Part shown: positions 467 through 64,000 of the stretch, piece after piece
Layout of the letters: each line of letters begins with the position of its first letter
Numbering within the stretch: position 1 is the stretch's first letter
Source: Escherichia phage PSa2
Reading direction: 5' to 3' (one strand)
Sequence record: OL770310
Length of the DNA: 64,000 nt
Translations under genes and position numbers: made by a program
The notes under the pieces: generated by a model
What the model saw: the letters and a program-made list of their open reading frames with translations, nothing else
The model's database searches: none
What the model was told of the DNA's origin: nothing

Positions 467-526
467 AAAATATCCTTGATTAGTCAGAGAAAGAGTTAGT
501 ATATGGGGCTTTCGCCCCATCAATCA

Positions 527-1051
527 TTACTTCGCTTTACGCTTACGAGCAGGTTTAGCGGATTTAGCGGATTTACGATCAGAAGCACCAGTAAACTTAA
601 TACCGATACCATAGCACAGAGCGCGAACGTTGTCACGGCTATACTCTACCCCGAAGATATTCGGTTTAATGGAGCCAAACTGTCCACGGGATTCACGCAT
701 TACGTCGGCCATTGGCTTACGCTTCTGATTGACTGCTTTTTCGTAGTCTTTCAGAGCCATACCGTTGCGGGCGAACATCTCAGCACCGCCGTTAAAGCTC
801 AGAGTTACCGGTACAGACTTATGACCTTCACCCTTGATGAACACAACCTGCTTAGCAGTTGCGCGAGTAGAGTTCTTGGCCTTCGGCTTCTGGCGAACCG
901 GAGCCGCAGACTTCAGGGCAGTCTGAGCCTGAGCATCAGTAGGATGCTTACGCAGATGACGTTCCAGACGAGCCTTACGATTGGCTTCGGTCTGAGCGAA
1001 AGTTTTAACTGCCGGAGCTGCCTGAGTTTTTGCGTTTTTCTGCTTAGCCAT
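527..1051 (-). CDS. hypothetical basic Lys/Ala-rich protein
   Basis: 174 aa ORF with lysine-rich tails (KAKNSTRATAK, SAKSAKPARKRKAK); no recognisable catalytic motif. Confidence 0.55.
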   Translation of the reverse strand: MAKQKNAKTQAAPAVKTFAQTEANRKARLERHLRKHPTDAQAQTALKSAAPVRQKPKAKNSTRATAKQVVFIKGEGHKSVPVTLSFNGGAEMFARNGMALKDYEKAVNQKRKPMADVMRESRGQFGSIKPNIFGVEYSRDNVRALCYGIGIKFTGASDRKSAKSAKPARKRKAK

Positions 1052-1134
1052 TATTTGTTTTCCTTTTTGTTGATCAATTTATGAGATATATTATACGAAA
1101 TTTTGAAGCGTTTAGCAAATGAATTTTTTAAAAA

Positions 1135-9707: not shown

Positions 9708-11582
9708 ATGAATCGCAATGAAGAACTAAAGTATAAAGGAATGCAGTCCTTGATTCGAAACTGCAAAGAAATTATCGAAGGTTCAGCAGATGAAGAACTG
9801 CTGTTTAATAATGCCAATAAGCCCTCAGAACGTTTCCCTACACAAAGGGACATGCTTGCAGGGGAATTGAGTAAATATCTGATTCTGGAAGAAATGCCAA
9901 TCCAGATTCGAAATGCTCACATGATTGGTGATATTCACTTCCATGATGCTGATTACGCTGCGTTAGGTATGACTAACTGTTGCCTGGTTGCTTTGGAAGA
10001 TATGTTGAAAAACGGTATGAAGGTTGGTAATGCTGAAATCAGTACGCCAAACTCCATTACTACTGCGGCTGCTATTACAGCTCAGATTATTACTCAGGTT
10101 AGCTCCCATCAATATGGTGGTACTTCTGTAGACCGATTAGATGAAGTACTGGCTCCTTATGTTCGTAAGTCTTATGATAAGAATCATGCGTTTGCAAAGC
10201 GTTGGACTAAGGATGAAGCCAAAGCATCTGTAATGGCTACGGAAATGACTGAGAAAGAAGTTTACGATGCCTGTCAAGGTCTAGAGTATGAAATCAATAC
10301 GATGTTCAACTCTAATGGTCAGAGTCCATTTATTACCTTTGGTTTTGGTCTAGGAACTTCCTGGGAAGCACGTCTTGTACAGAAAGCAATCTTAGAAGTG
10401 CGTATGGATGGTTTGGGTATCAATAAACGTACAGCTATCTTCCCTAAACTGGTATTTGTTTTGCGTGATGGCGTAAACATGAAACCTGGTGATGTTAACT
10501 ATGATATCAAGAAGTTAGCTATGAAATGTACTGCTGAACGTATGTATCCTGACTACATCAGTTATGATAAGGTTGTAGAAGTTACGGGAGACTACAAAGT
10601 CTCTATGGGCTGTCGTTCATTCCTGGCTGCTGCGGAAGATGGTGAAACTTCTGGTCGTAACAACTTAGGCGTTGTTTCCGTAAACCTTCCTCGAATCGCT
10701 ATCGAAGCGGAAGGAAATATTGATCTATTCTTCGATCTGCTTGAGCTGCGTGTGGATACCGCGTTAAAAGCATTGGAGTGGAGGGTTGATCGCTTAAAAT
10801 ACATTCAAGCTAAAGCTGCGCCCATCCTCTATATGTCAGGAGCCTTTGGATTACGTCTGGGACCCGATGAATATGTATTTGATCATTTCTACAAGCGTGC
10901 TTCTGTATCTCTAGGATATATTGGTTGCCACGAAATGTTGCAGCTCATGTTTGGTAAAGATGTAGATACAATGTCTGAGTCTTGTATCAAGTTCGTTCAA
11001 CGTGTGCTACAATATATGCGTGATCGTGCTGATCAGAAGAAGGAAGAGACTCAATTAGGTTATAGTCTGTATGCTACACCATCTGAATCTCTATGTGATC
11101 GCTTTTGTCGCCTAGACCGTGAGTATTTCCCAGAGCATGAAGATATTCTGGCTAAAGGATATTACACTAACTCCCATCACCTTGATGTAGAACGTAAGGT
11201 TGCTCCAAACGTGAAGTTTGATTATGAGTCTAACTTTACCCCTATTGCTTCTGGTGGGTGCATTTCCTATGTGGAACTACCGGATATGAAACGATTCCCA
11301 GATGCGCTGGAATGGGTTATTAACTATGCCGCAAGTAAAGTTCATTACTTCGGTATTAATACTCCAGTAGACTCTTGTGGGGAATGTGGGTTCTTGGGTG
11401 AAACTATAGCTTCTGAGGATGGTTTCAAATGCCCTATTTGTGGCAACCATGATCCTGAGACTCTTGAGGTAACTCGTCGAGTTTGTGGCTATCTTGGAAA
11501 TCCAGGTGCTCGTCCGTTTAACCCAGGTAAACAACATGAGGTTATGGGTCGAGTGAAACATCAGGACATTCGCGCTAAATAA
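9708..11582 (+). CDS. nrdD: anaerobic ribonucleoside-triphosphate reductase (class III)
   Basis: 624 aa; C-terminal glycyl-radical motif (RVCGYLG) and zinc-ribbon cysteines (CGECG...CPICG). Confidence 0.9.
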   Translation: MNRNEELKYKGMQSLIRNCKEIIEGSADEELLFNNANKPSERFPTQRDMLAGELSKYLILEEMPIQIRNAHMIGDIHFHDADYAALGMTNCCLVALEDMLKNGMKVGNAEISTPNSITTAAAITAQIITQVSSHQYGGTSVDRLDEVLAPYVRKSYDKNHAFAKRWTKDEAKASVMATEMTEKEVYDACQGLEYEINTMFNSNGQSPFITFGFGLGTSWEARLVQKAILEVRMDGLGINKRTAIFPKLVFVLRDGVNMKPGDVNYDIKKLAMKCTAERMYPDYISYDKVVEVTGDYKVSMGCRSFLAAAEDGETSGRNNLGVVSVNLPRIAIEAEGNIDLFFDLLELRVDTALKALEWRVDRLKYIQAKAAPILYMSGAFGLRLGPDEYVFDHFYKRASVSLGYIGCHEMLQLMFGKDVDTMSESCIKFVQRVLQYMRDRADQKKEETQLGYSLYATPSESLCDRFCRLDREYFPEHEDILAKGYYTNSHHLDVERKVAPNVKFDYESNFTPIASGGCISYVELPDMKRFPDALEWVINYAASKVHYFGINTPVDSCGECGFLGETIASEDGFKCPICGNHDPETLEVTRRVCGYLGNPGARPFNPGKQHEVMGRVKHQDIRAK

Positions 11583-32661: not shown

Positions 32662-34480
32662 GACACTAAAATTCAGCAACGTTATGTCTTACGGTAAGGA
32701 TATCGTAATTCATTTCGATAAGAATCCAGTTACTCAGTTAATTGGAGGAAATGGTCTAGGGAAGTCCACTATTGCTACTGTTATTGAGGAATTGTTTTAT
32801 AACAAGAACTCACGTGGTATCAAGAAGGACGCCCTATTCTCTTGGGGTTCTCCGAAGAAAGAGTATGATATGCACGCTTACTTCTCGAAAGATGAAGATG
32901 AGTATGAATTGCATAAAGTAGTTAAATCAACTGCTAAGGTTACGCTGATTAAGAACGGGGAAGATATCAGTGGGCACACAGCAACTCAAACGTACAAGAT
33001 GATTGAAGAGATTATGGGTGGTGACTTCCAAACATTCACTAAACTGATCTATCAATCTGTTGGTTCCAATCTAGACTTCCTCAAAGCAACTGATGCAACA
33101 CGTAAAGCTTTTCTTGTTAATCTGTTCAATCAGGAACAGTATAAAGAGATGTCAGAAACTATTAAGGCTGATCGTAAAGAAGTGGCAAGTACGTTAAGTA
33201 ACTTGCAAGGCCAGATGGCCGTAATTACGAAGATCCTCAATGGAAAAGGTAATCTCGGAAGTTTACAAGAACCAGTTGAAGTTCCAGAGTTTGATGAAGA
33301 ACCGTTAGCACAAGAACTTACTGAATCGAAAATTAAGGCGGCATTAGCCAAGTCACAAGAGGCTAATATTACTAAACTCCGTAATTTGGACAAAGCTGTA
33401 CAAGTTGCCGAACAATCTTTCGAGCCTTTCAAAAATTTCCCTGCGCCCACTGACCAATCTGAAGAGATCTCAAGTGTTACGCGTGACCTAACGATCGTTA
33501 CCTCACGTGCGGGAGAAGTCAAGAAACGTTATCAGAAGTTCAAGCAAGAGGCTTCAAATACTGAATGTCCTACTTGTGGCACTCACCTTGATACAACTGC
33601 TGCTCAAAAAGCCATGGATATGGCTAGAACAGAATATGATCCTCTGTTTAAAGAGAAACAATCTCTTGAAGCTACATTGGAGCAGTTGAAGAAAGAACAA
33701 GTCGAGTACACTGCGTATACTAGAGCTAAGGATGCTTTGGATAAGGCAGTAGCAGCTAGAGACGAATTCAAAAATTCAATGAGTGATGCTTCTTTTGAAG
33801 AACTCAATGTGCAAATCCTACAGGTGCAAATCCGACAATTAGAACAGGAAATCGCAGATGGACGTTCTAAAGTTGCAATTGCCAAAGAACATAATGCAAA
33901 TGTCGAATTAGCCAATGCAAAGTATAAAGCGAAACTAGAACAGATTGAGAAAGCTGAGGCAGAAATGTCTGAGATAACGTCCAAACTGGAAGGAGTATCA
34001 GAAGCTGTTGCTGATCTTGATATTCTGATCGCTGCATTGAAAAATCTGGTAGGATATAAACTAGAGCATAGTGTGAAAGTATTTGAGGAATTAATTAATA
34101 AATATCTTTCTATTATGACTGGTGGTAAGTTCGCACTTGGATTTGAACTTGATGAAACTAAATTACAAGTAGTAATCTTCAATGATGGAAATCGTACTAG
34201 TATGGAGAACTGCTCCACTGGTCAGCAAAGTAGAATTAATTTAGCAACTCTGTTAGCTATTCGAATGCTGTTAACATCTATCAGCAAAGTTAATATTAAT
34301 CTTCTGTTCCTTGACGAAGTTATTAGCTTTATTGATACGAAAGGACTTGATACTCTCGTTGAATTATTAAATGAGGAAGATAGTCTAAACTCTATCATTG
34401 TTTCTCATGGGCATACGCATCCATTAGCCCATAAGATTACTGTCAAAAAAGATGCAGAAGGATTTTCCTACTTAGAATAA
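32642..34480 (+). CDS. SbcC/Rad50-like ATPase
   Basis: Walker A GGNGLGKST, central coiled coil with CPTCG zinc hook, signature STGQQSRINL, Walker B LLFLDEV. Confidence 0.8.
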   Translation: MSKITIKTLKFSNVMSYGKDIVIHFDKNPVTQLIGGNGLGKSTIATVIEELFYNKNSRGIKKDALFSWGSPKKEYDMHAYFSKDEDEYELHKVVKSTAKVTLIKNGEDISGHTATQTYKMIEEIMGGDFQTFTKLIYQSVGSNLDFLKATDATRKAFLVNLFNQEQYKEMSETIKADRKEVASTLSNLQGQMAVITKILNGKGNLGSLQEPVEVPEFDEEPLAQELTESKIKAALAKSQEANITKLRNLDKAVQVAEQSFEPFKNFPAPTDQSEEISSVTRDLTIVTSRAGEVKKRYQKFKQEASNTECPTCGTHLDTTAAQKAMDMARTEYDPLFKEKQSLEATLEQLKKEQVEYTAYTRAKDALDKAVAARDEFKNSMSDASFEELNVQILQVQIRQLEQEIADGRSKVAIAKEHNANVELANAKYKAKLEQIEKAEAEMSEITSKLEGVSEAVADLDILIAALKNLVGYKLEHSVKVFEELINKYLSIMTGGKFALGFELDETKLQVVIFNDGNRTSMENCSTGQQSRINLATLLAIRMLLTSISKVNINLLFLDEVISFIDTKGLDTLVELLNEEDSLNSIIVSHGHTHPLAHKITVKKDAEGFSYLE

Positions 34481-56618: not shown

Positions 56619-57101
56619 TTAAGCCTCCGGCGCAGGGTTGATAGTTGTTACGCACTCATTAGAAGTAATGGAAGTAGATTTACTATCCGTTACAACAACT
56701 TTGTAAGTACCAGCATCTTCTGCAGCAGCTGTAGCTTTGTTGAAATTAGAGCCAGTAACACCACTAAGTGGAGAACCGTCTTTAGTCCAAGCATAAGTAT
56801 ATGGTGCAGTACCACCAGTAACTGTTACGCCCAGATTAATTGCTGCACCAGTATCAACAGCTAGAGTTTTAGCCAGATTCTTCGTGAAAGCTATAGCCGG
56901 AACAACCGGAGCAGTAACTTCGTATGCTTCTTTGAACTTATTCCAAACCTTGCGGTTGGTATGTGCAGTGGTCATTCCAAACTCTTTACGTAGAGTAGCA
57001 TAGTTTGGAACGAACTTGTGTGCTGCAACCGTAGCAAAGAAGATATGAGATTCTGGCAGCTTTTCACCAAAAATGGCCTTTAGACCATCATAATCAATCA
57101 T
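56619..57101 (-). CDS. capsid decoration protein with Ig-like domain
   Basis: C-terminal Ig-like segment TVTGGTAPYTYAWTKDGSPLSGV...GTYKVVVTD. Confidence 0.55.
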   Translation of the reverse strand: MIDYDGLKAIFGEKLPESHIFFATVAAHKFVPNYATLRKEFGMTTAHTNRKVWNKFKEAYEVTAPVVPAIAFTKNLAKTLAVDTGAAINLGVTVTGGTAPYTYAWTKDGSPLSGVTGSNFNKATAAAEDAGTYKVVVTDSKSTSITSNECVTTINPAPEA

Positions 57102-60675: not shown

Positions 60676-62457
60676 TTAGGTTAGGCGTTGAACTGTTACA
60701 CGTAGTCTTGGTAAGAAGATAGCAGCTGCTTCGGCAGCATGGATAATAACGCCTAACTCAACGTTACCATTACCAAGGTTTTTTACTGTATAAATATACC
60801 CATTTCTACGAAAAGCCATCTCATCAGGTCTACTAGCCCACGTTTGGGTATAGCTATATGAAGTTGTACTGTGATATGGTACTAGATAGCCAGGTGGCAG
60901 AGTAAGAATCTGATGAAATACACCATCACCAGCTGTATAACTTTGTTGACGTCTACCTTGTACCTGCCAAGCACTACCCCCATAAGTACGCACAGGCATT
61001 CCAGCAGTATTAAGATTACCCATAATAACTTCAGTAGTTAATATAACAGTAGAGTGAGCATTTGGTAATCCCAACCAAACTGTGGCCAAAGGTGTGTAGA
61101 AGTCACCAGCACCAGGGTAGGATGGAGTTATATCATCCCCAACATAAGTACTCGCAACGTTGCCTGGGAATAATCTAAGTGGTACGGTACTAGGACTCCA
61201 TACAGGGCCATGCTCATTACCTATAGAGTTGGTATTAGTATCTACATACCACTGTTTACCAACACCAAATTTATAAAGGCTAATTTGAGAAGCAGCACCC
61301 CCATAGTTAACAGGAGACCACAAACCCCCATTACTAGAGCCGATAAATTCACATCGTGCAGTATTATCACCAAAAACTCCGGTATACGCGGTATTATTAC
61401 CAACATACTCCATATCAGGGCGATAACCTAAGTTTCCAAAAGCATTCTGGTTAATAAATTTATAGCCTGAGTTGGGTAAGCTAACACCTTTAATAGTAAA
61501 GTTAGATGGAGATATCAGGATATCTGAACCAGTAAATGGATTACCAGAAATCCCCATACTACCATTAGAATAGCGTAGATTTAGCACATACCAAATAACT
61601 TTAGTAGGTGTAACATTATACCAGTCTTGCACATATACCTTTCTAGCTGACTGAGCAGCCATATTAGAAGTAGAACCTCTACAAACATATATTTTTTCTG
61701 GATATGCAGGAGATTGGTAAAGAACGTTTACGTTATCTGGTAGTACACCTTTTTTACCGGCAAAGCCACGAATATTGGAACTACAAACGTAAAACCAATC
61801 ATGACCTCTACCAGCAGACCCGATAGGCGCTTGCCAGTTAGGCTCCCAATAGTCTGCATTACCACCATCTATAGGAACTGTAGATACACCCGTTGGAAAG
61901 CCCATTAATCTCCAGGCTCTGGAAATAGCTTCACCAGCAGAAACACCACCAGGTCTAAAGATCTGGAAACCGGAAGATTGTAGCAAAGTACCGCCAGTTC
62001 CTTGTCTAGCAATAGATTCCTCATGACCTAGGCTACCATTATAAATATAGGTACCATGAGCTAAACTATCCCCGATTGCAAAGGCAGATGTTATTGCCAA
62101 TTCAGCACCCGCACGTGGTTGGTCTTCAAAGAATGTTAAAAACTGGCCAACCTGAGATTGTGTACCATTAAGGAAACCCCTATGAGTACCATTTATCTCA
62201 ATAGCAGTTAATATAACTCTACCAGGATCATTGGATTTAATGTTTATAATATCCCAAGGCATCTGAGTAACAAAGTACCCATTACCTGCATCACCTAGGG
62301 CAGCCTCATAAGTCCCATCAACTAGGACGAAGGGCATATCTGAGTGGAAGATACTATTAGTATTTGGAGAGTAGTGCTGATTTATATCACCACCATTAGC
62401 AGCGTTTAGAGATAATACAGTTTTACCATCACTAAATTTTCCTGCGAAAAAACTCAT
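60676..62457 (-). CDS. receptor-binding protein (pb5-like), receptor unknown
   Basis: 593 aa Gly/Asn/Tyr-rich protein heading the late operon, divergent from a lipoprotein gene as for oad/llp in T5-like phages (recalled). Confidence 0.55.
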
Positions 62458-62482
62458 ACAATCTCCTTCTTTAAAAATGTAT

Positions 62483-62511
62483 TTGCTTAGATCCCTCTAT
62501 TTTGCTATAAT
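62483..62511 (+). promoter_or_regulatory. early promoter module for lipoprotein gene (TTGCTT-N17-TATAAT)
   Basis: -35 62483..62488, -10 62506..62511, leader ATATTTATAAATTAAACAGAGGAAC, ATG 62541. Confidence 0.65.
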
Positions 62512-62540
62512 ATATTTATAAATTAAACAGAGGAACAATT

Positions 62541-62807
62541 ATGAAAAAGTTACTAGCCATCGTAGTTGCAGCAGTAGTGTTGACGGGTTGTGTACCGGCT
62601 CCCGAGCCATTCTGTAAGGCATACGTGAAGTCTTATGGTCATGTTGGTGAAGAACACTATGCTTTAGATATTCGAGAAGCACGTACTGTAGGCTACCGAT
62701 TCCCTAAAACTCAGTTACGCACTAAGTTTGGGTGGTGGGATTTGTCACAGTTTGATCTCAAATATGGCGATTGCAAATTTAAACTAGAACAATCTGGTCA
62801 CTTGTAA
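62541..62807 (+). CDS. llp: lipoprotein, Llp-like (candidate receptor-blocking superinfection-exclusion protein)
   Basis: Signal peptide with lipobox MKKLLAIVVAAVVLTGC; divergent from the RBP gene. Confidence 0.6.
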   Translation: MKKLLAIVVAAVVLTGCVPAPEPFCKAYVKSYGHVGEEHYALDIREARTVGYRFPKTQLRTKFGWWDLSQFDLKYGDCKFKLEQSGHL

Positions 62808-62881
62808 TTAGTATAAAGTAAAAAGATCTCGAAGTAAACAAAAATTTTTATTTCTGGGATGAGGTACAGGTAGCAAACACA

Positions 62882-63196
62882 ATGCAAGATGTAGAAAAGT
62901 CCTTTCAGGAACCTGTTAACTTTGAAATAGATCCCAGAACTAAAGCAATACATAATGCGATTAACGAAATCATTCAAGACGTCATAGAAGATACAATAGA
63001 ATACGTGATGGGAACATCCTTCTTACTAGAAGAGTCCGGCTTCGATGAAGTAATGGATCTTATCGGGACAGTCATAATGGTTCGTGCAATTGCTAGGATA
63101 TTCCAAATACCAGGACTACAGGAGAAGCAAAGAGATGTCAGACGACAACAGAAGAAAGAACAGACGCGGGGAAGTGTACGAAAGTTGGATAAATAG
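62882..63196 (+). CDS. hypothetical protein
   Basis: 104 aa ORF; partly overlapped in another frame by ORF 63084..63269. Confidence 0.35.
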   Translation: MQDVEKSFQEPVNFEIDPRTKAIHNAINEIIQDVIEDTIEYVMGTSFLLEESGFDEVMDLIGTVIMVRAIARIFQIPGLQEKQRDVRRQQKKEQTRGSVRKLDK

Positions 63197-63269
63197 TTTC
63201 GGATTCGGAACTGTATTATTCTTTATCTTTGTACTCTTTTGGTTAGCAGCTATGGCGGGGTGGTTATAA
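63084..63269 (+). CDS. small membrane protein (alternative start 63135)
   Basis: C-terminal TM helix FGTVLFFIFVLFWLAAMAGWL. Confidence 0.3.
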   Translation: MQLLGYSKYQDYRRSKEMSDDNRRKNRRGEVYESWINSFGFGTVLFFIFVLFWLAAMAGWL

Positions 63270-63372
63270 TGGAAGTAGTAATTATTGCTTTACTAGTTGT
63301 GGTAATTATCGGGCAGTGCATTTTAGATAACCACCTAGCTCGTATCGAACGTAAGCTGCTGGGAGATAAATA

Positions 63373-63567
63373 ATGGATTGGTTAGGACTTATTACACTTG
63401 TAGTATGGATTGTCTGGATTGTTGGATACATGACGTCACATCGTAATCGTATACAGAAGCTAGAGGATAAAGTCACCCAACTAAACATTAATATGGATAA
63501 GTTACTGGACTCCCAACGTAATGATCGGGCACGTATTCACCAACTTGAGAGGGAATTAGATGTTTAG
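63373..63567 (+). CDS. small single-pass membrane protein
   Basis: N-terminal TM LGLITLVVWIVWIVGYM then coiled-coil-like charged tail. Confidence 0.45.
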   Translation: MDWLGLITLVVWIVWIVGYMTSHRNRIQKLEDKVTQLNINMDKLLDSQRNDRARIHQLERELDV

Positions 63568-63805
63568 CTTTGTAGCTATCTTCATTATCGGAGTGCTTGC
63601 TGGGATCTTCGGAACACTCGGGGCGATTAATAAGCATCGTGAATATATTGCGGGAGTATCGCGGGAGCTTTCGGAAAGGGAGCGGAAGTTTGCGGAGAAA
63701 CGTGCGGAGTTTGAGCGAGAGTGGTCGGAGGGATCTCGGGCGTCGCGGCGGAGATTTCGTATGTCAGAATCGGGAGATAAGCCAGTAGATAGGAGAAGTT
63801 CATGA
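63560..63805 (+). CDS. small single-pass membrane protein with Arg/Glu-rich tail
   Basis: TM FSFVAIFIIGVLAGIFGTLGAI then ERERKFAEKRAEFEREW..RRRF, encoded by a purine/GC-rich GCGGAG-like repeat. Confidence 0.45.
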   Translation: MFSFVAIFIIGVLAGIFGTLGAINKHREYIAGVSRELSERERKFAEKRAEFEREWSEGSRASRRRFRMSESGDKPVDRRSS

Positions 63806-64000
63806 TATTTAAGAAAATCCCTGATGAAATAGCTGGTAGTTTTTCATATGATCCAGATACGGGGCGATTCCTGCCTATTATAGGGTATACTAAGGAAAGT
63901 GAAGGTTATCTCATATATCGTCACCCACAGTTCGGAGAGTTTAGAGTGCATCGCCTAGCTTGGTGGTGCATCTACGGAGAAGATCCCGGAGAATCTCTCC
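63802..64000 (+). CDS. HNH-family homing-endonuclease-like protein, partial (runs off right edge)
   Basis: Manual translation MIFKKIPDEIAGSFSYDPDTGRFLPIIGYTKESEGYLIYRH...FRVHRLAWWCIYGEDPG resembles the HNH_3 N-terminal pattern (GYL..., VHRL...). Confidence 0.45.
   Translation, partial: MIFKKIPDEIAGSFSYDPDTGRFLPIIGYTKESEGYLIYRHPQFGEFRVHRLAWWCIYGEDPGESL

What the first reader, a model, noticed from the sequence alone, without database searches (positions are those of the whole stretch)
63084..63805. Cluster of small single-pass membrane proteins with a purine-rich GC repeat
Three or four consecutive ORFs of 35-80 aa each have one TM helix plus a charged tail (including an unlisted ~34 aa ORF at 63269..63373, MEVVIIALLVVVIIGQCILDNH...). 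The region 63640..63780 is a degenerate GCGGAG-like purine-rich repeat, compositionally unlike the rest of the window, encoding ERERKFAEKRAEFEREW. Next to the llp-like gene these could be further membrane-acting exclusion, holin-like or anti-defence peptides.
Basis: seen in the sequence. Interest (0 to 1): 0.45.

Follow-up and report, generated by a model that had tools for sequence, protein, structure and literature searches.

The report
Small membrane genes with G-rich tract
Four tiny membrane-protein genes next to the receptor-blocking gene of a T5-like phage are real, but they are already catalogued, dispensable in the laboratory and of unknown function; the G-rich stretch in the last gene uses the phage's rarest codons and resembles G-rich tracts found beside both terminal-repeat boundaries of T5-like genomes, which suggests a DNA or RNA signal overlaid on the gene.

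Summary
The window is a T5-like phage (Epseptimavirus). Positions 63135-63805 carry four translationally coupled ORFs of 44, 34, 64 and 81 aa, each with one strong hydrophobic helix. They are orthologues of T5.159-T5.162, which are annotated in T5 and hundreds of other public genomes. They lie downstream of llp, at the right end of the unique genome, just before the right terminal repeat. The families are restricted to T5-like phages, scored "Not Fit" in a published T5 knock-down screen, and lie far from the T5 lysis cassette.

The "repeat" is mainly a compositional island covering codons 31-68 of the last gene. It has the highest GC, G and CpG content in the 64 kb. Third-position G is 0.63 against 0.18 expected, and third-position C is 0. 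It uses the rarest codons (CGG, TCG, GCG).

Amino-acid content, an overlapping ORF and RNA structure do not explain the island. G-rich, C-poor tracts on the same strand lie just left of both terminal-repeat boundaries in several Demerecviridae genera, in coding and non-coding DNA. I therefore read the island as a position-linked nucleic-acid signal overlaid on the gene. It is probably a Rho-loading insulator on the antisense transcript or a terminus-processing signal; neither is proven. The protein function remains inferred only.

The parts
62483..62511 (+). T5-type early sigma-70 promoter upstream of llp: -35 TTGCTT, 17-nt spacer, -10 TATAAT. Presumed promoter of the whole llp-to-HNH unit.
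   Evidence: Read directly from the sequence. T5 has the same TTGCTT-17-TATAAT arrangement inside its annotated llp promoter. The consensus scan finds no convincing terminator or promoter between llp and gene D.
62541..62807 (+). llp, the Cor/Llp-type receptor-blocking lipoprotein and first gene of the unit
   Evidence: PHROG 1119, E 1e-23; lipobox LTGC; annotated as such in relatives.
62882..63196 (+). 104-aa ORF (PHROG 16810). It is not a membrane protein, overlaps gene A by 62 nt, and is degenerate in T5.
63135..63269 (+). Gene A, orthologue of T5.159. 44 aa with a basic N-tail (5 K/R) and a C-terminal TM helix; predicted N-in, tail-anchored.
   Evidence: PHROG 8596, E 2e-28; hydrophobicity and charge; present in 18 of 18 genomes.
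63269..63373 (+). Gene B, orthologue of T5.160. 34 aa with an N-terminal TM helix and a short charged tail.
   Evidence: PHROG 6369, E 5e-23; present in 16 of 18 genomes.
63373..63567 (+). Gene C, orthologue of T5.161. 64 aa with an N-terminal TM helix and a coiled-coil-like charged helix ending in the invariant HQLERELDV; predicted N-out, C-in.
   Evidence: PHROG 5851, E 9e-36. Present in 14 of 18 genomes. An exhaustive profile search found no relatives outside T5-like phages.
63560..63805 (+). Gene D, orthologue of T5.162. 81 aa with an N-terminal TM helix (residues 1-23) continuing into a long Arg/Glu-rich helix, then a variable tail.
   Evidence: PHROG 6447, E 8e-46. AlphaFold2 gives a helix over residues 2-70, pLDDT 72. 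Found in 440 phage records. Only 53 protein clusters in 5.8 billion proteins, all from T5-like phages.
63650..63763 (+). G-rich, C-poor rare-codon island (codons 31-68 of D).
   Evidence: G3 is 0.63 against 0.18 +/- 0.05 expected, with 0 of 20,000 simulations reaching it. z = 8.8 against a maximum of 5.0 over 15,797 windows in 44 long ORFs. C3 = 0. The bias is retained in all 18 relatives. It is the top G-minus-C window of the 64 kb on either strand.
63802..64000 (+). 5' part of an HNH homing-endonuclease gene, cut by the window end. It is inserted between D and the terminal-repeat boundary.
   Evidence: PHROG 99, E 4e-7. The full 474-nt gene is present in atrejo. It is absent in T5 and phiR201, and a different HNH sits there in Shivani and ESCO40.

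Best explanation
SHOWN. The finding is the T5.159-T5.162 cassette of a T5-like (Epseptimavirus) phage. It consists of four translationally coupled genes for very small single-pass membrane proteins. They lie downstream of llp on the same strand, at the extreme right end of the unique genome. In the closest relative the right terminal repeat begins about 500 nt beyond gene D, after an inserted HNH gene, so it lies just outside the window.

INFERRED, about 0.7. The genes are transcribed with llp from the T5-type early promoter at 62483-62511. The transcript ends at a hairpin-plus-U-tract terminator inside the terminal repeat, next to the convergent dmp gene.

INFERRED, about 0.35. A is anchored N-in. 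B, C and D are anchored N-out, C-in, so the charged helices of C and D face the cytoplasm. The proteins act together at the inner membrane of the infected cell as dispensable accessory factors. Possible roles are exclusion of superinfecting T5-like DNA or other envelope or host take-over functions. They are not the lysis machinery.

The 'purine-rich GC repeat' is codons 31-68 of D, which encode the Arg/Glu-rich helix. Its composition comes from codon choice, not from the protein: almost every synonymous position that can be G is G, and none is C.

INFERRED, about 0.6. This is a nucleotide-level element overlaid on the coding sequence and tied to its genomic position. G-rich, C-poor tracts of the same polarity lie immediately left of both terminal-repeat boundaries in T5, Shivani, phiR201, My1 and, at the left boundary, Kamaji. 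They occur in coding and in non-coding DNA.

PREFERRED MECHANISM, about 0.3. Leftward transcripts that cross a repeat boundary become C-rich, G-poor, unstructured and untranslated RNA. Here that means read-through from dmp, whose hairpin lacks a U-tract on that strand. Such RNA is an ideal Rho loading (rut) site, which would insulate the temporal transcription classes. A role in terminase cutting or repeat duplication is nearly as likely, at about 0.25.

The overall confidence of 0.45 refers to the composite statement. The identity part alone is about 0.95.
For: Identity and synteny:
- 96-97% DNA identity to atrejo and other phages, with 261 matching records.
- T5 annotation of T5.159-162, each noted 'contains single transmembrane domain', with the repeat starting 41 nt after T5.162.
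- PHROG matches and overlapping stop/start codons.

Topology and fold: and the AlphaFold2 model.

Transcription unit:
- Promoter hexamers and no terminator between llp and D.
- A strong hairpin after dmp (z -4.4 to -7), different in sequence between T5 and the Epseptimavirus relative but at the same place. It has a U-tract only on the llp strand.

Accessory nature:
- 'Not Fit' in the CRISPRi-ART screen.
- B or C missing in some genomes, and mosaic alleles.
- Lysis genes elsewhere.
- Analogous tiny TM ORFs at the same position in Providencia PSTCR5, Klebsiella Sugarlandvirus and Pectobacterium My1.

Island:
- Top GC, G and CpG window.
- G3 0.63 against 0.18 expected, 0 of 20,000 simulations; z 8.8 against a maximum of 5.0.
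- The bias is kept in all 18 relatives, with C3 at most 0.08.

Position link:
- My1 has a non-coding 20-nt x3.3 G-rich repeat (G 0.43, C 0.08) 66-132 nt left of its repeat boundary. Its best match in the 64 kb is the island (P 0.012).
- The unrelated last genes of Kamaji and the Klebsiella phage show G3 excess (P about 0.001).
- The last 250-280 nt inside the repeat's right end are G 0.36-0.47 and C 0.04-0.09 in T5, Shivani, phiR201 and My1. In T5 this is the top G-minus-C window of positions 1-50 kb (z 6.6), as the island is for the window.
- The antisense RNA is C 43%, G 15% and barely folds (-12 to -19.5 kcal/mol per roughly 140 nt).
Against: - No experiment bears on expression timing, topology or function of A-D. 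The exclusion or host take-over role is guilt by association, and three genomes without llp keep A-D.
- Synonymous-site diversity in the island is not clearly lower than in flanking codons (0.19 against 0.24, P 0.09-0.26). Ongoing selection on the nucleotides is therefore not proven, and an old bias that is slowly decaying (G3 0.45-0.50 in Shivani, ESCO40 and phiR201) is possible.
- In this phage lineage an HNH gene separates the island from the repeat boundary by about 550 nt.
- Providencia PSTCR5 has no G-rich tract, and the Klebsiella signal is weak.
- The left and right tracts share composition but no motif (P 0.04-0.9).
- In this AT-rich phage the rarest codons are the G-ending ones, so 'rare-codon cluster' and 'G-rich tract' are confounded within D alone.
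- The one full-text search for T5 and Rho-dependent termination returned nothing.
Confidence: 0.45

Rival explanations
1. Terminus-processing signal. The G-rich tracts left of each terminal-repeat boundary are cis elements used when concatemers are cut or the repeat is duplicated. They could be terminase or small-terminase loading sites (cosB- or pac-like) or strand-specific nick and strand-displacement signals. The D island is the copy serving the left boundary.
For: - Both boundaries are preceded on the same side and strand by the most extreme G-minus-C tracts of the genome.
- In T5 and My1 the left tract ends 40-85 nt from the conserved terminus motif TTACACATG.
- Tandem repeats abut the predicted terminus in My1 (20 nt x3.3) and PSTCR5 (68 nt x2.5).
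- The right-end tract is the first DNA packaged if the left end is injected first and packaged last (established T5 biology, my inference).
Against: - The left and right tracts share no motif beyond composition, which is unusual for one sequence-specific DNA-binding protein.
- HNH insertions move the island about 550 nt from the cut site without apparent harm.
- The PSTCR5 repeats are not G-rich.
- The papers I opened report no T5 terminase recognition site.
Confidence: 0.25
2. Translation-level signal. The island is a cluster of the rarest codons placed 30-68 codons into an 81-codon signal-anchor protein. It slows ribosomes just as the N-terminal TM helix leaves the exit tunnel. This would give SRP or YidC time to capture a very short nascent chain, or would simply throttle a potentially toxic membrane protein.
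For: - CGG (1% of Arg codons), TCG (3% of Ser) and GCG (8% of Ala) dominate the island.
- The island starts 8 codons after the TM helix ends.
- T5's annotated tRNA set has no Ser or Ala tRNA with an anticodon specific for TCG or GCG; the anticodon of its single tRNA-Arg is not given in the record, so CGG decoding is unresolved.
- Nine SD-like GGAG motifs lie in 160 nt.
- Rare-codon and SD-like pauses downstream of signal anchors have been proposed in yeast and E. coli (my recollection, not checked here).
Against: - Genes A, B and C, which are also small TM proteins, show no such bias.
- This model does not explain the non-coding G-rich tract at the same position in My1, the G3 excess in the non-membrane last gene of Kamaji, or the tract at the repeat's right end.
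- GGAG is not enriched once the amino-acid sequence and codon counts are fixed (P 0.05-0.3).
- C-ending rare codons are never used.
Confidence: 0.1
3. No nucleotide-level function. The island is a relic of internal duplication of a short G-rich unit (21 nt, one heptad) that built the charged helix of D. Its G-ending codons are inherited and are decaying slowly. The similarity to tracts at the repeat boundaries is coincidence.
For: - Heptad (21-nt) indels occur in relatives, and phiR201 has 21-nt tandem units.
- T5 has an internal 35-nt repeat family inside D.
- Synonymous diversity is not significantly reduced.
- G3 is lower (0.45-0.50) in some lineages.
Against: - The bias is still z = 8.8 although about 35% of synonymous codons have turned over between this phage and T5 elsewhere in the genome.
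- C3 is 0-0.08 in every lineage.
- The two most extreme G-minus-C tracts found in T5 positions 1-50 kb and in this 64-kb window both lie within about 300 nt left of a repeat boundary. I estimate the chance of that at roughly 1e-4 or less.
- The same compositional tract occurs in non-coding DNA of My1.
Confidence: 0.2
4. The four proteins are lysis-timing or envelope-disruption factors (holin, antiholin, pinholin-like or spanin-like) rather than exclusion or host take-over factors.
For: - Each has one TM helix plus a highly charged tail, as in many holins.
- C has a weak hit to a 'holin' PHROG (phrog_1296, E 0.0086).
- C and D resemble an i-spanin in having a TM helix followed by a coiled coil.
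Against: - T5 has a complete lysis cassette elsewhere: endolysin T5.040, holin T5.041 and Rz-like spanins T5.044/045 (PMC4342426).
- The genes follow what looks like an early promoter.
- The positive-inside rule puts the C and D tails in the cytoplasm, the opposite of an i-spanin.
- No cognate outer-membrane partner lies in or next to C or D other than Llp, whose function is known.
- The genes are dispensable in the T5 screen.
Confidence: 0.1

Closest known systems
T5.159-T5.162 of phage T5 (PHROGs 8596, 6369, 5851, 6447)
   Same: Orthologous genes in the same order, with the same overlapping starts and the same position between llp and the right terminal repeat. Each T5 gene is annotated as containing a single transmembrane domain. 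The G-ending codon island is present in T5.162.
   Different: This phage has window-type alleles of A-C (40-81% identity to T5), an intact 104-aa ORF upstream, a different C-terminal tail on D, and an HNH gene inserted after D.
Llp / Cor-type superinfection exclusion (lytic conversion) of T5
   Same: Same strand, immediately upstream, with the same presumed early promoter. Both are small envelope proteins that are dispensable in the laboratory.
   Different: Llp is an outer-membrane lipoprotein that co-varies with the receptor type. A and D are inner-membrane-type helices that are conserved regardless of receptor type and persist in genomes without llp. There is no sequence relationship.
PspB / CcmD-like bitopic inner-membrane proteins
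   Same: C has the same architecture: an N-terminal TM helix followed by a cytoplasmic amphipathic helix. It gives full-length sub-threshold hits to two PspB models (E 0.006 and 0.009).
   Different: The hits fall below curated cut-offs. The profile comparison gives 12% probability over 20 residues. This is not a membership.
Rho-dependent terminators (rut sites such as lambda tR1)
   Same: The antisense RNA of the island is about 115-140 nt, C about 43%, G about 15%, nearly unstructured, and untranslated downstream of dmp.
   Different: It lies antisense inside a coding sequence and is paired with a second tract at the other repeat boundary. Rho dependence is untested, and nothing was found in the literature for T5.
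Terminase recognition regions next to cut sites (lambda cosB, pac sites, T7 concatemer junction)
   Same: It is a distinctive sequence tract immediately beside each genome-end cut site, with a fixed polarity, and tandem repeats are present in some relatives.
   Different: The two tracts share no motif. The spacing to the cut site varies from about 40 to about 550 nt. No binding data exist.

Membership tests
T5.159-T5.162 cassette (PHROG 8596/6369/5851/6447) | Significant sequence match of each ORF to the family | tested here: met
   E values 2e-28, 5e-23, 9e-36 and 8e-46, all full length; tblastn and BLAST to T5.
T5.159-T5.162 cassette (PHROG 8596/6369/5851/6447) | Synteny: downstream of the receptor-binding protein and llp, on the llp strand, as the last genes before the right terminal repeat and convergent dmp | tested here: met
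   The repeat boundary itself lies outside the window, predicted at about window coordinate 64,320 from atrejo.
T5.159-T5.162 cassette (PHROG 8596/6369/5851/6447) | One transmembrane helix per protein | tested here: met
   Hydrophobic spans of 17-24 residues with mean KD 2.3-3.3; AlphaFold2 helix for D. No dedicated TM predictor was available.
Holins | Gene adjacent to or within the lysis cassette (endolysin and spanins) | tested here: not met
   The T5 lysis cassette is at T5.040-T5.045, about 90 kb away; PMC4342426.
Holins | Match to a holin family model | tested here: inconclusive
   Only C hits phrog_1296 'holin', at E 0.0086. Nothing was found in Pfam or NCBIfam.
Holins | Lethal, timed membrane permeabilisation on expression | not testable with these tools
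   Needs inducible expression.
Two-component spanins (Rz/Rz1 type) | An i-spanin with an N-in TM helix and a periplasmic coiled coil, plus a cognate outer-membrane lipoprotein gene that is embedded, overlapping or adjacent | tested here: not met
   The positive-inside rule predicts that the C and D tails are cytoplasmic. No lipobox ORF lies in or next to C or D. T5 already has Rz-like spanins T5.044/045.
Known superinfection-exclusion or defence and anti-defence protein families | Sequence match to a described family | tested here: not met
   No hits in PADLOC and nothing above cut-off in Pfam or NCBIfam. Only llp itself matches Cor.
Known superinfection-exclusion or defence and anti-defence protein families | Protection of an expressing cell against superinfecting phage | not testable with these tools
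   Needs plating assays.
Rho utilisation (rut) site | At least about 80 nt of C-rich, G-poor, weakly structured RNA | tested here: met
   Antisense of 63641-63784: C about 43%, G about 15%, MFE -13.4 kcal/mol (z +2.2). Relatives give -12 to -19.5 kcal/mol.
Rho utilisation (rut) site | The RNA is untranslated and is reached by transcription that has no efficient intrinsic terminator upstream | tested here: inconclusive
   No conserved antisense ORF with a start codon. The hairpin after dmp lacks a U-tract on the dmp strand. No transcript data are available.
Rho utilisation (rut) site | Rho- or bicyclomycin-dependent 3' ends downstream | not testable with these tools
   Needs Term-seq with and without bicyclomycin.
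Terminase recognition (cos/pac-like) site | A fixed position beside the genome-end cut site | tested here: inconclusive
   The tract is 40-200 nt from the boundary in T5 and My1, but about 550-700 nt away in the window's lineage because of the HNH insertion.
Terminase recognition (cos/pac-like) site | A shared sequence motif at the sites cut by the same enzyme | tested here: not met
   The left and right tracts are similar in composition only (P 0.04-0.9 against shuffles).
Tandem DNA repeat | Head-to-tail copies detectable above chance | tested here: inconclusive
   In the window only an 11-nt x2 repeat is found (TRF score 37). The 21-nt periodicity is visible only through indels and units in relatives.
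Rfam RNA families | A covariance-model match | tested here: not met
   No match at E up to 1 in 62400-64000.

The most novel reading that the evidence does not exclude
T5-like phages mark both boundaries of their 10-kb terminal repeat with a strand-specific G-rich, C-poor tract placed just to the left of each boundary. At the left boundary of T5-like (Markadamsvirinae) genomes this tract has been written into the coding sequence of a membrane-protein gene (T5.162, or D here) by forcing nearly every synonymous site to G. The tracts would be cis-acting signals. They could be Rho-dependent insulators that stop leftward transcription from crossing between temporal gene classes, or signals for terminase cutting, repeat duplication or DNA-ejection pausing. 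The right-end tract lies next to the long-sought injection stop region.
Probability: 0.5. Interest if true: 0.65.

Novelty: already known. Interest (0 to 1): 0.4.

Why it matters
The gene cassette itself is ordinary. It is a conserved, annotated, laboratory-dispensable set of phage ORFan membrane proteins, and T5 annotates many small TM proteins of this kind. Its value is as a defined four-gene target for asking what T5-like phages do at the inner membrane early in infection.

The more useful result is the codon anomaly. It shows a strong nucleotide-level pattern inside a protein-coding gene, and it links that gene to a compositional signature at both terminal-repeat boundaries across Demerecviridae genera. 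How T5 terminase finds its cut sites, how the 10-kb repeat is duplicated, how pre-early, early and late transcription are insulated on a host-polymerase-only phage, and what the injection stop signal physically is are all open questions. The two tracts give short, precisely located and recodable targets for testing them.

Tried and rejected
- Overlapping gene in another frame. The +1 and antisense frames are open across the island, but none has a conserved start and several are interrupted in relatives. Rejected.
- Known RNA family or sense-strand RNA structure. There is no Rfam hit and the sense fold z is -0.1 to -0.6. Rejected.
- Selection for GGAG (SD-like) or GGA (CsrA-like) motifs as such. 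GGAG is 9 per 160 nt and beats mononucleotide shuffles. It is not enriched once the amino acids and codon counts are fixed (P 0.05-0.3), and individual motifs are not conserved (5-10 per genome). No independent support.
- prfB-like +1 frameshift at GGGAG-CUU-UCG. The site is ATT GCG in T5-type alleles. Rejected.
- G-quadruplex. The GGG runs are not conserved. Rejected.
- T5 nick consensus R/GCGCRGG (PMC3517423). The island has only a one-mismatch hit, and such hits are not enriched. Rejected.
- Extra purifying selection at synonymous sites. The test was not significant overall. Same-codon identity to T5 is 0.87 against 0.62-0.66 elsewhere, but on only 30 codons.
- Remote homology of C and D. 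5.8 billion proteins and 1.84 billion representatives with a profile for C gave only T5-like phages. PspB similarity was not significant. PADLOC and NCBIfam gave nothing usable.
- A shared motif between the left and right tracts. None was found.
- Vibrio and Aeromonas relatives have a different gene order and could not be used.
- The promoter/terminator scan gave only chance-level hits.
Full report
WHAT THE WINDOW IS

The last 1.6 kb of the window is 96-97% identical to Salmonella phage atrejo and matches 261 phage records, all T5-like Demerecviridae. The local gene order is as follows:
- the receptor-binding tail protein (60676-62457, minus strand);
- llp (62541-62807, plus strand);
- a 104-aa ORF;
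- four very small ORFs;
- an HNH endonuclease gene that is cut by the window end.

In phage T5 the four small ORFs are T5.159-T5.162. Each is annotated 'contains single transmembrane domain'. T5.162 ends 41 nt before the right terminal repeat. The repeat begins with the convergent pre-early gene dmp.

CHECK OF THE OBSERVATION

The four ORFs are:
- A, 63135-63269, 44 aa;
- B, 63269-63373, 34 aa;
- C, 63373-63567, 64 aa;
- D, 63560-63805, 81 aa.

The ATG at 63135 follows AGGAG and corresponds to the T5.159 start.

Successive genes overlap by 1, 1, 8 and 4 nt (TAATG, TAATG, ATGTTTAG, ATGA). This is typical of translational coupling.

Each protein has one hydrophobic span of 17-24 residues (mean Kyte-Doolittle 2.3-3.3). 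A has five K/R residues before a C-terminal helix, so it is predicted N-in. B, C and D have an acidic or absent N-tail and basic residues right after the helix, so they are predicted N-out, C-in. AlphaFold2 with 21 homologues models D as one helix over residues 2-70 with a disordered tail (pLDDT 72).

All four ORFs match PHROG families at E 1e-23 to 1e-46. Nothing reaches a curated cut-off in Pfam, NCBIfam or PADLOC.

CONSERVATION AND DISTRIBUTION

D is found in 440 phage records. In 5.8 billion proteins it forms only 53 clusters, all at least 67% identical and all from T5-like phages. C forms 8 clusters. An exhaustive profile search of 1.84 billion representatives finds only its own family.

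In 18 genomes examined, A and D are always present, B is present in 16 and C in 14. Window-type and T5-type alleles are mixed between genomes. Three of these genomes lack llp but keep the cassette.

More distant Demerecviridae have non-homologous genes of similar architecture at the same place:
- Providencia PSTCR5 has five ORFs of 29-46 aa, each with one TM helix.
- A Klebsiella Sugarlandvirus has a 74-aa protein (TM helix plus coiled coil) and a 151-aa protein (TM helix plus helix).
- Pectobacterium My1 has a 103-aa protein (TM helix plus coiled coil) as the last gene before its right repeat.

FUNCTIONAL EVIDENCE FROM THE LITERATURE

In the CRISPRi-ART knock-down screen of T5, T5.159-T5.162 are all listed as 'Not Fit' (PMC11879866, supplementary file 16). 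They are therefore dispensable on a laboratory host.

[quoted passage not shown] In the T5 record these are T5.040, T5.041 and T5.044/045. No paper mentioning T5.162 was found.

TRANSCRIPTION UNIT (INFERRED)

A T5-type early promoter lies 30 nt upstream of llp: TTGCTT, 17 nt, TATAAT at 62483-62511. The same arrangement lies inside T5's annotated llp promoter. No convincing promoter or terminator lies between llp and D.

In relatives, a strong hairpin lies inside the repeat just after the dmp stop. Its z-score is -4.4 to -7, and its sequence differs between T5 and the Epseptimavirus relative while its position is the same. It is followed by a U-tract only on the llp strand. It therefore looks like the terminator of the llp-to-D(-HNH) unit and a poor terminator for dmp.

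THE 'PURINE-RICH GC REPEAT'

As a repeat it is weak. TRF finds only TATYGCGGGAG x2, and GCGGAG occurs three times.

As a compositional island it is extreme. It is the top window of the whole 64 kb for GC (0.64), for G (0.43 over 140 nt) and for CpG (19 against a mean of 4.4).

The amino-acid sequence does not explain this. Given the protein and the window's codon usage, the expected third-position G content of codons 31-68 is 0.18 +/- 0.05. The observed value is 0.63, reached by 0 of 20,000 simulations. As a z-score this is 8.8, against a maximum of 5.0 over 15,797 windows in 44 long ORFs.

The codons used are the rarest in the phage: CGG (1% of Arg codons), TCG (3% of Ser) and GCG (8% of Ala). 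No codon in the island ends in C.

Genes A-C, llp and the TM part of D are unremarkable. The bias is present in all 18 relatives, with G3 0.45-0.63 and C3 at most 0.08.

EXPLANATIONS TESTED AND SET ASIDE

- Alternative frames have no conserved start and are interrupted in some relatives.
- There is no Rfam hit.
- The sense RNA is no more structured than shuffles.
- GGAG is very dense (9 per 160 nt), but it is a by-product of G3 plus Glu codons.
- A prfB-like shift site, G-quadruplex runs and the T5 nick consensus are not conserved or not enriched.
- Synonymous diversity is not clearly lower than in the flanks, so ongoing selection is not demonstrated directly.
- Heptad-sized (21-nt) indels and 21-nt tandem units in relatives show that the helix grew or shrinks by slippage.

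THE POSITION LINK

In My1, a different subfamily, the last gene before the repeat has no codon bias. However, the non-coding 160 nt between its stop and the repeat hold a perfect 20-nt x3.3 tandem repeat with G 0.43 and C 0.08. The best match of that repeat anywhere in the 64-kb window, on either strand, is the D island (P 0.012 against dinucleotide shuffles; phiR201 0.006; T5 0.076).

The unrelated last genes of Serratia phage Kamaji and of the Klebsiella phage also have a G3 excess in their 3' halves (P about 0.001).

I aligned genomes on the conserved left-terminus motif: AGCGCTAA, then about 30 nt, then TTAC(A/G)(C/T)A(T/C)G, with the annotated repeat start 13-14 nt later in T5 and My1. 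On this alignment the G-rich tract lies:
- at -200 to -40 in T5 and My1;
- at -400 to -40 in Kamaji;
- at -360 to -120 in phiR201.

It is weak in the Klebsiella phage and absent in PSTCR5.

In the window's lineage the HNH insertion pushes the tract to about -700 to -550. The boundary itself would then be near window coordinate 64,320, outside the window.

The other repeat boundary shows the same feature. The last 250-280 nt inside the repeat's right end are G 0.36-0.47 and C 0.04-0.09 in T5, Shivani, phiR201 and My1. Composition returns to normal exactly at the boundary. In T5 positions 1-50 kb that tract is the top G-minus-C window on either strand (z 6.6), just as the D island is the top one in this window (z 4.4). 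The two tracts share composition but no motif.

INTERPRETATION

Shown:
- the cassette is the T5.159-162 orthologue set;
- its products are small single-helix proteins;
- the island is a codon-choice anomaly.

Inferred:
- co-transcription with llp;
- the topologies;
- an accessory inner-membrane role.

For the island, the comparative data favour a nucleotide-level, strand-specific and position-linked element (about 0.6) over a translation-level rare-codon pause (about 0.1) or a neutral relic (about 0.2).

Both tracts are placed so that leftward transcripts crossing a repeat boundary become C-rich, G-poor, unstructured and untranslated RNA. At the left boundary the transcript is dmp read-through. 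At the right boundary it is read-through from the T5.018 operon. The antisense of the island is C 43% and G 15%, with MFE -12 to -19.5 kcal/mol per roughly 140 nt. That is the signature of a Rho loading site and needs only composition, which is what is conserved.

The same geometry equally fits a role in terminase cutting or repeat duplication.

I also note, as arithmetic only, that the first-step-transfer shear point (about 9.6 kb; bioRxiv 10.1101/866236) plus one tail length of DNA falls near the right-end tract.

None of these mechanisms can be decided with sequence alone.

VERDICT

The membrane-protein reading is right, but the proteins are already catalogued, and their proposed functions remain untested, with holin the least likely. 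The added value is the codon-level anomaly and its link to the terminal-repeat boundaries. I did not find that link described in the papers I could search.

Noticed in passing
window 63802-64000 (continues beyond the window); L001 5403-5876; L006 2706-3203: A homing-endonuclease insertion hotspot lies right after codon ~75 of D. Some relatives carry a full-length or truncated HNH of the window's type, others an AP2-type HNH, and T5 none. D has four alternative C-terminal tails after RR/KRF: RMSESGDKPVDRRSS, REFRPEHRFDDPSMR, RAKVSDEE and KIDGKS/KIDDKT.
   Followed up: partly
relatives only: L003 4533 (T5), L025 3172 (My1), L001 ~5912; predicted window coordinate ~64,320: The left genome terminus has a conserved context across Demerecviridae genera. 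In order: AGCGCTAA; about 30 nt; TTAC(A/G)(C/T)A(T/C)G; the repeat start 13-14 nt later; AGTCTnnTnACCGCCCCC; a strong hairpin; and the dmp stop. phiR201 carries a 66-nt duplication of this unit.
   Followed up: partly
T5 9,950-10,219 (L026 1450-1720); also L028, L029, L030: The last ~250 nt of the terminal repeat, next to the annotated injection stop region, are the most G-rich and C-poor DNA of T5 positions 1-50 kb. The feature is conserved in Shivani, phiR201 and My1.
   Followed up: partly
L025 3040-3106 (My1); L021 4635-4808 (Providencia PSTCR5): Tandem repeats abut the terminal-repeat left boundary. My1 has a perfect 20-nt x3.3 repeat (AGTTTGCGTGAGATGAGAGA), and PSTCR5 has a 68-nt x2.5 repeat (87% matches).
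   Followed up: partly
window 875-974, within overlapping ORFs 503-1084 (+) and 527-1051 (-): This is the second most GC-rich 100-nt window of the 64 kb (GC 0.60, no G/C skew). The plus-strand ORF has high G3 and C3 (z 5.0) and no PHROG match. The stretch may be foreign or mis-framed.
   Followed up: no
window 33440-33447 (-) and 56629-56636 (+): These are the only two exact matches to the published T5 major-nick consensus R/GCGCRGG (GGCGCAGG). They could mark single-chain interruption sites of this phage.
   Followed up: no
window 62882-63196: The 104-aa ORF (PHROG 16810) overlaps gene A by 62 nt. It ends earlier in atrejo's annotation and is reduced to a remnant in T5, so it appears to be decaying in some lineages.
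   Followed up: partly
T5 record NC_005859, 12.5-33 kb (L027): T5 annotates many other small one- or two-TM 'hypothetical' proteins in its early region (for example T5.020.021.027.029-.031.048.049.052.066). The cassette studied here is therefore one of several small-membrane-protein clusters.
   Followed up: no
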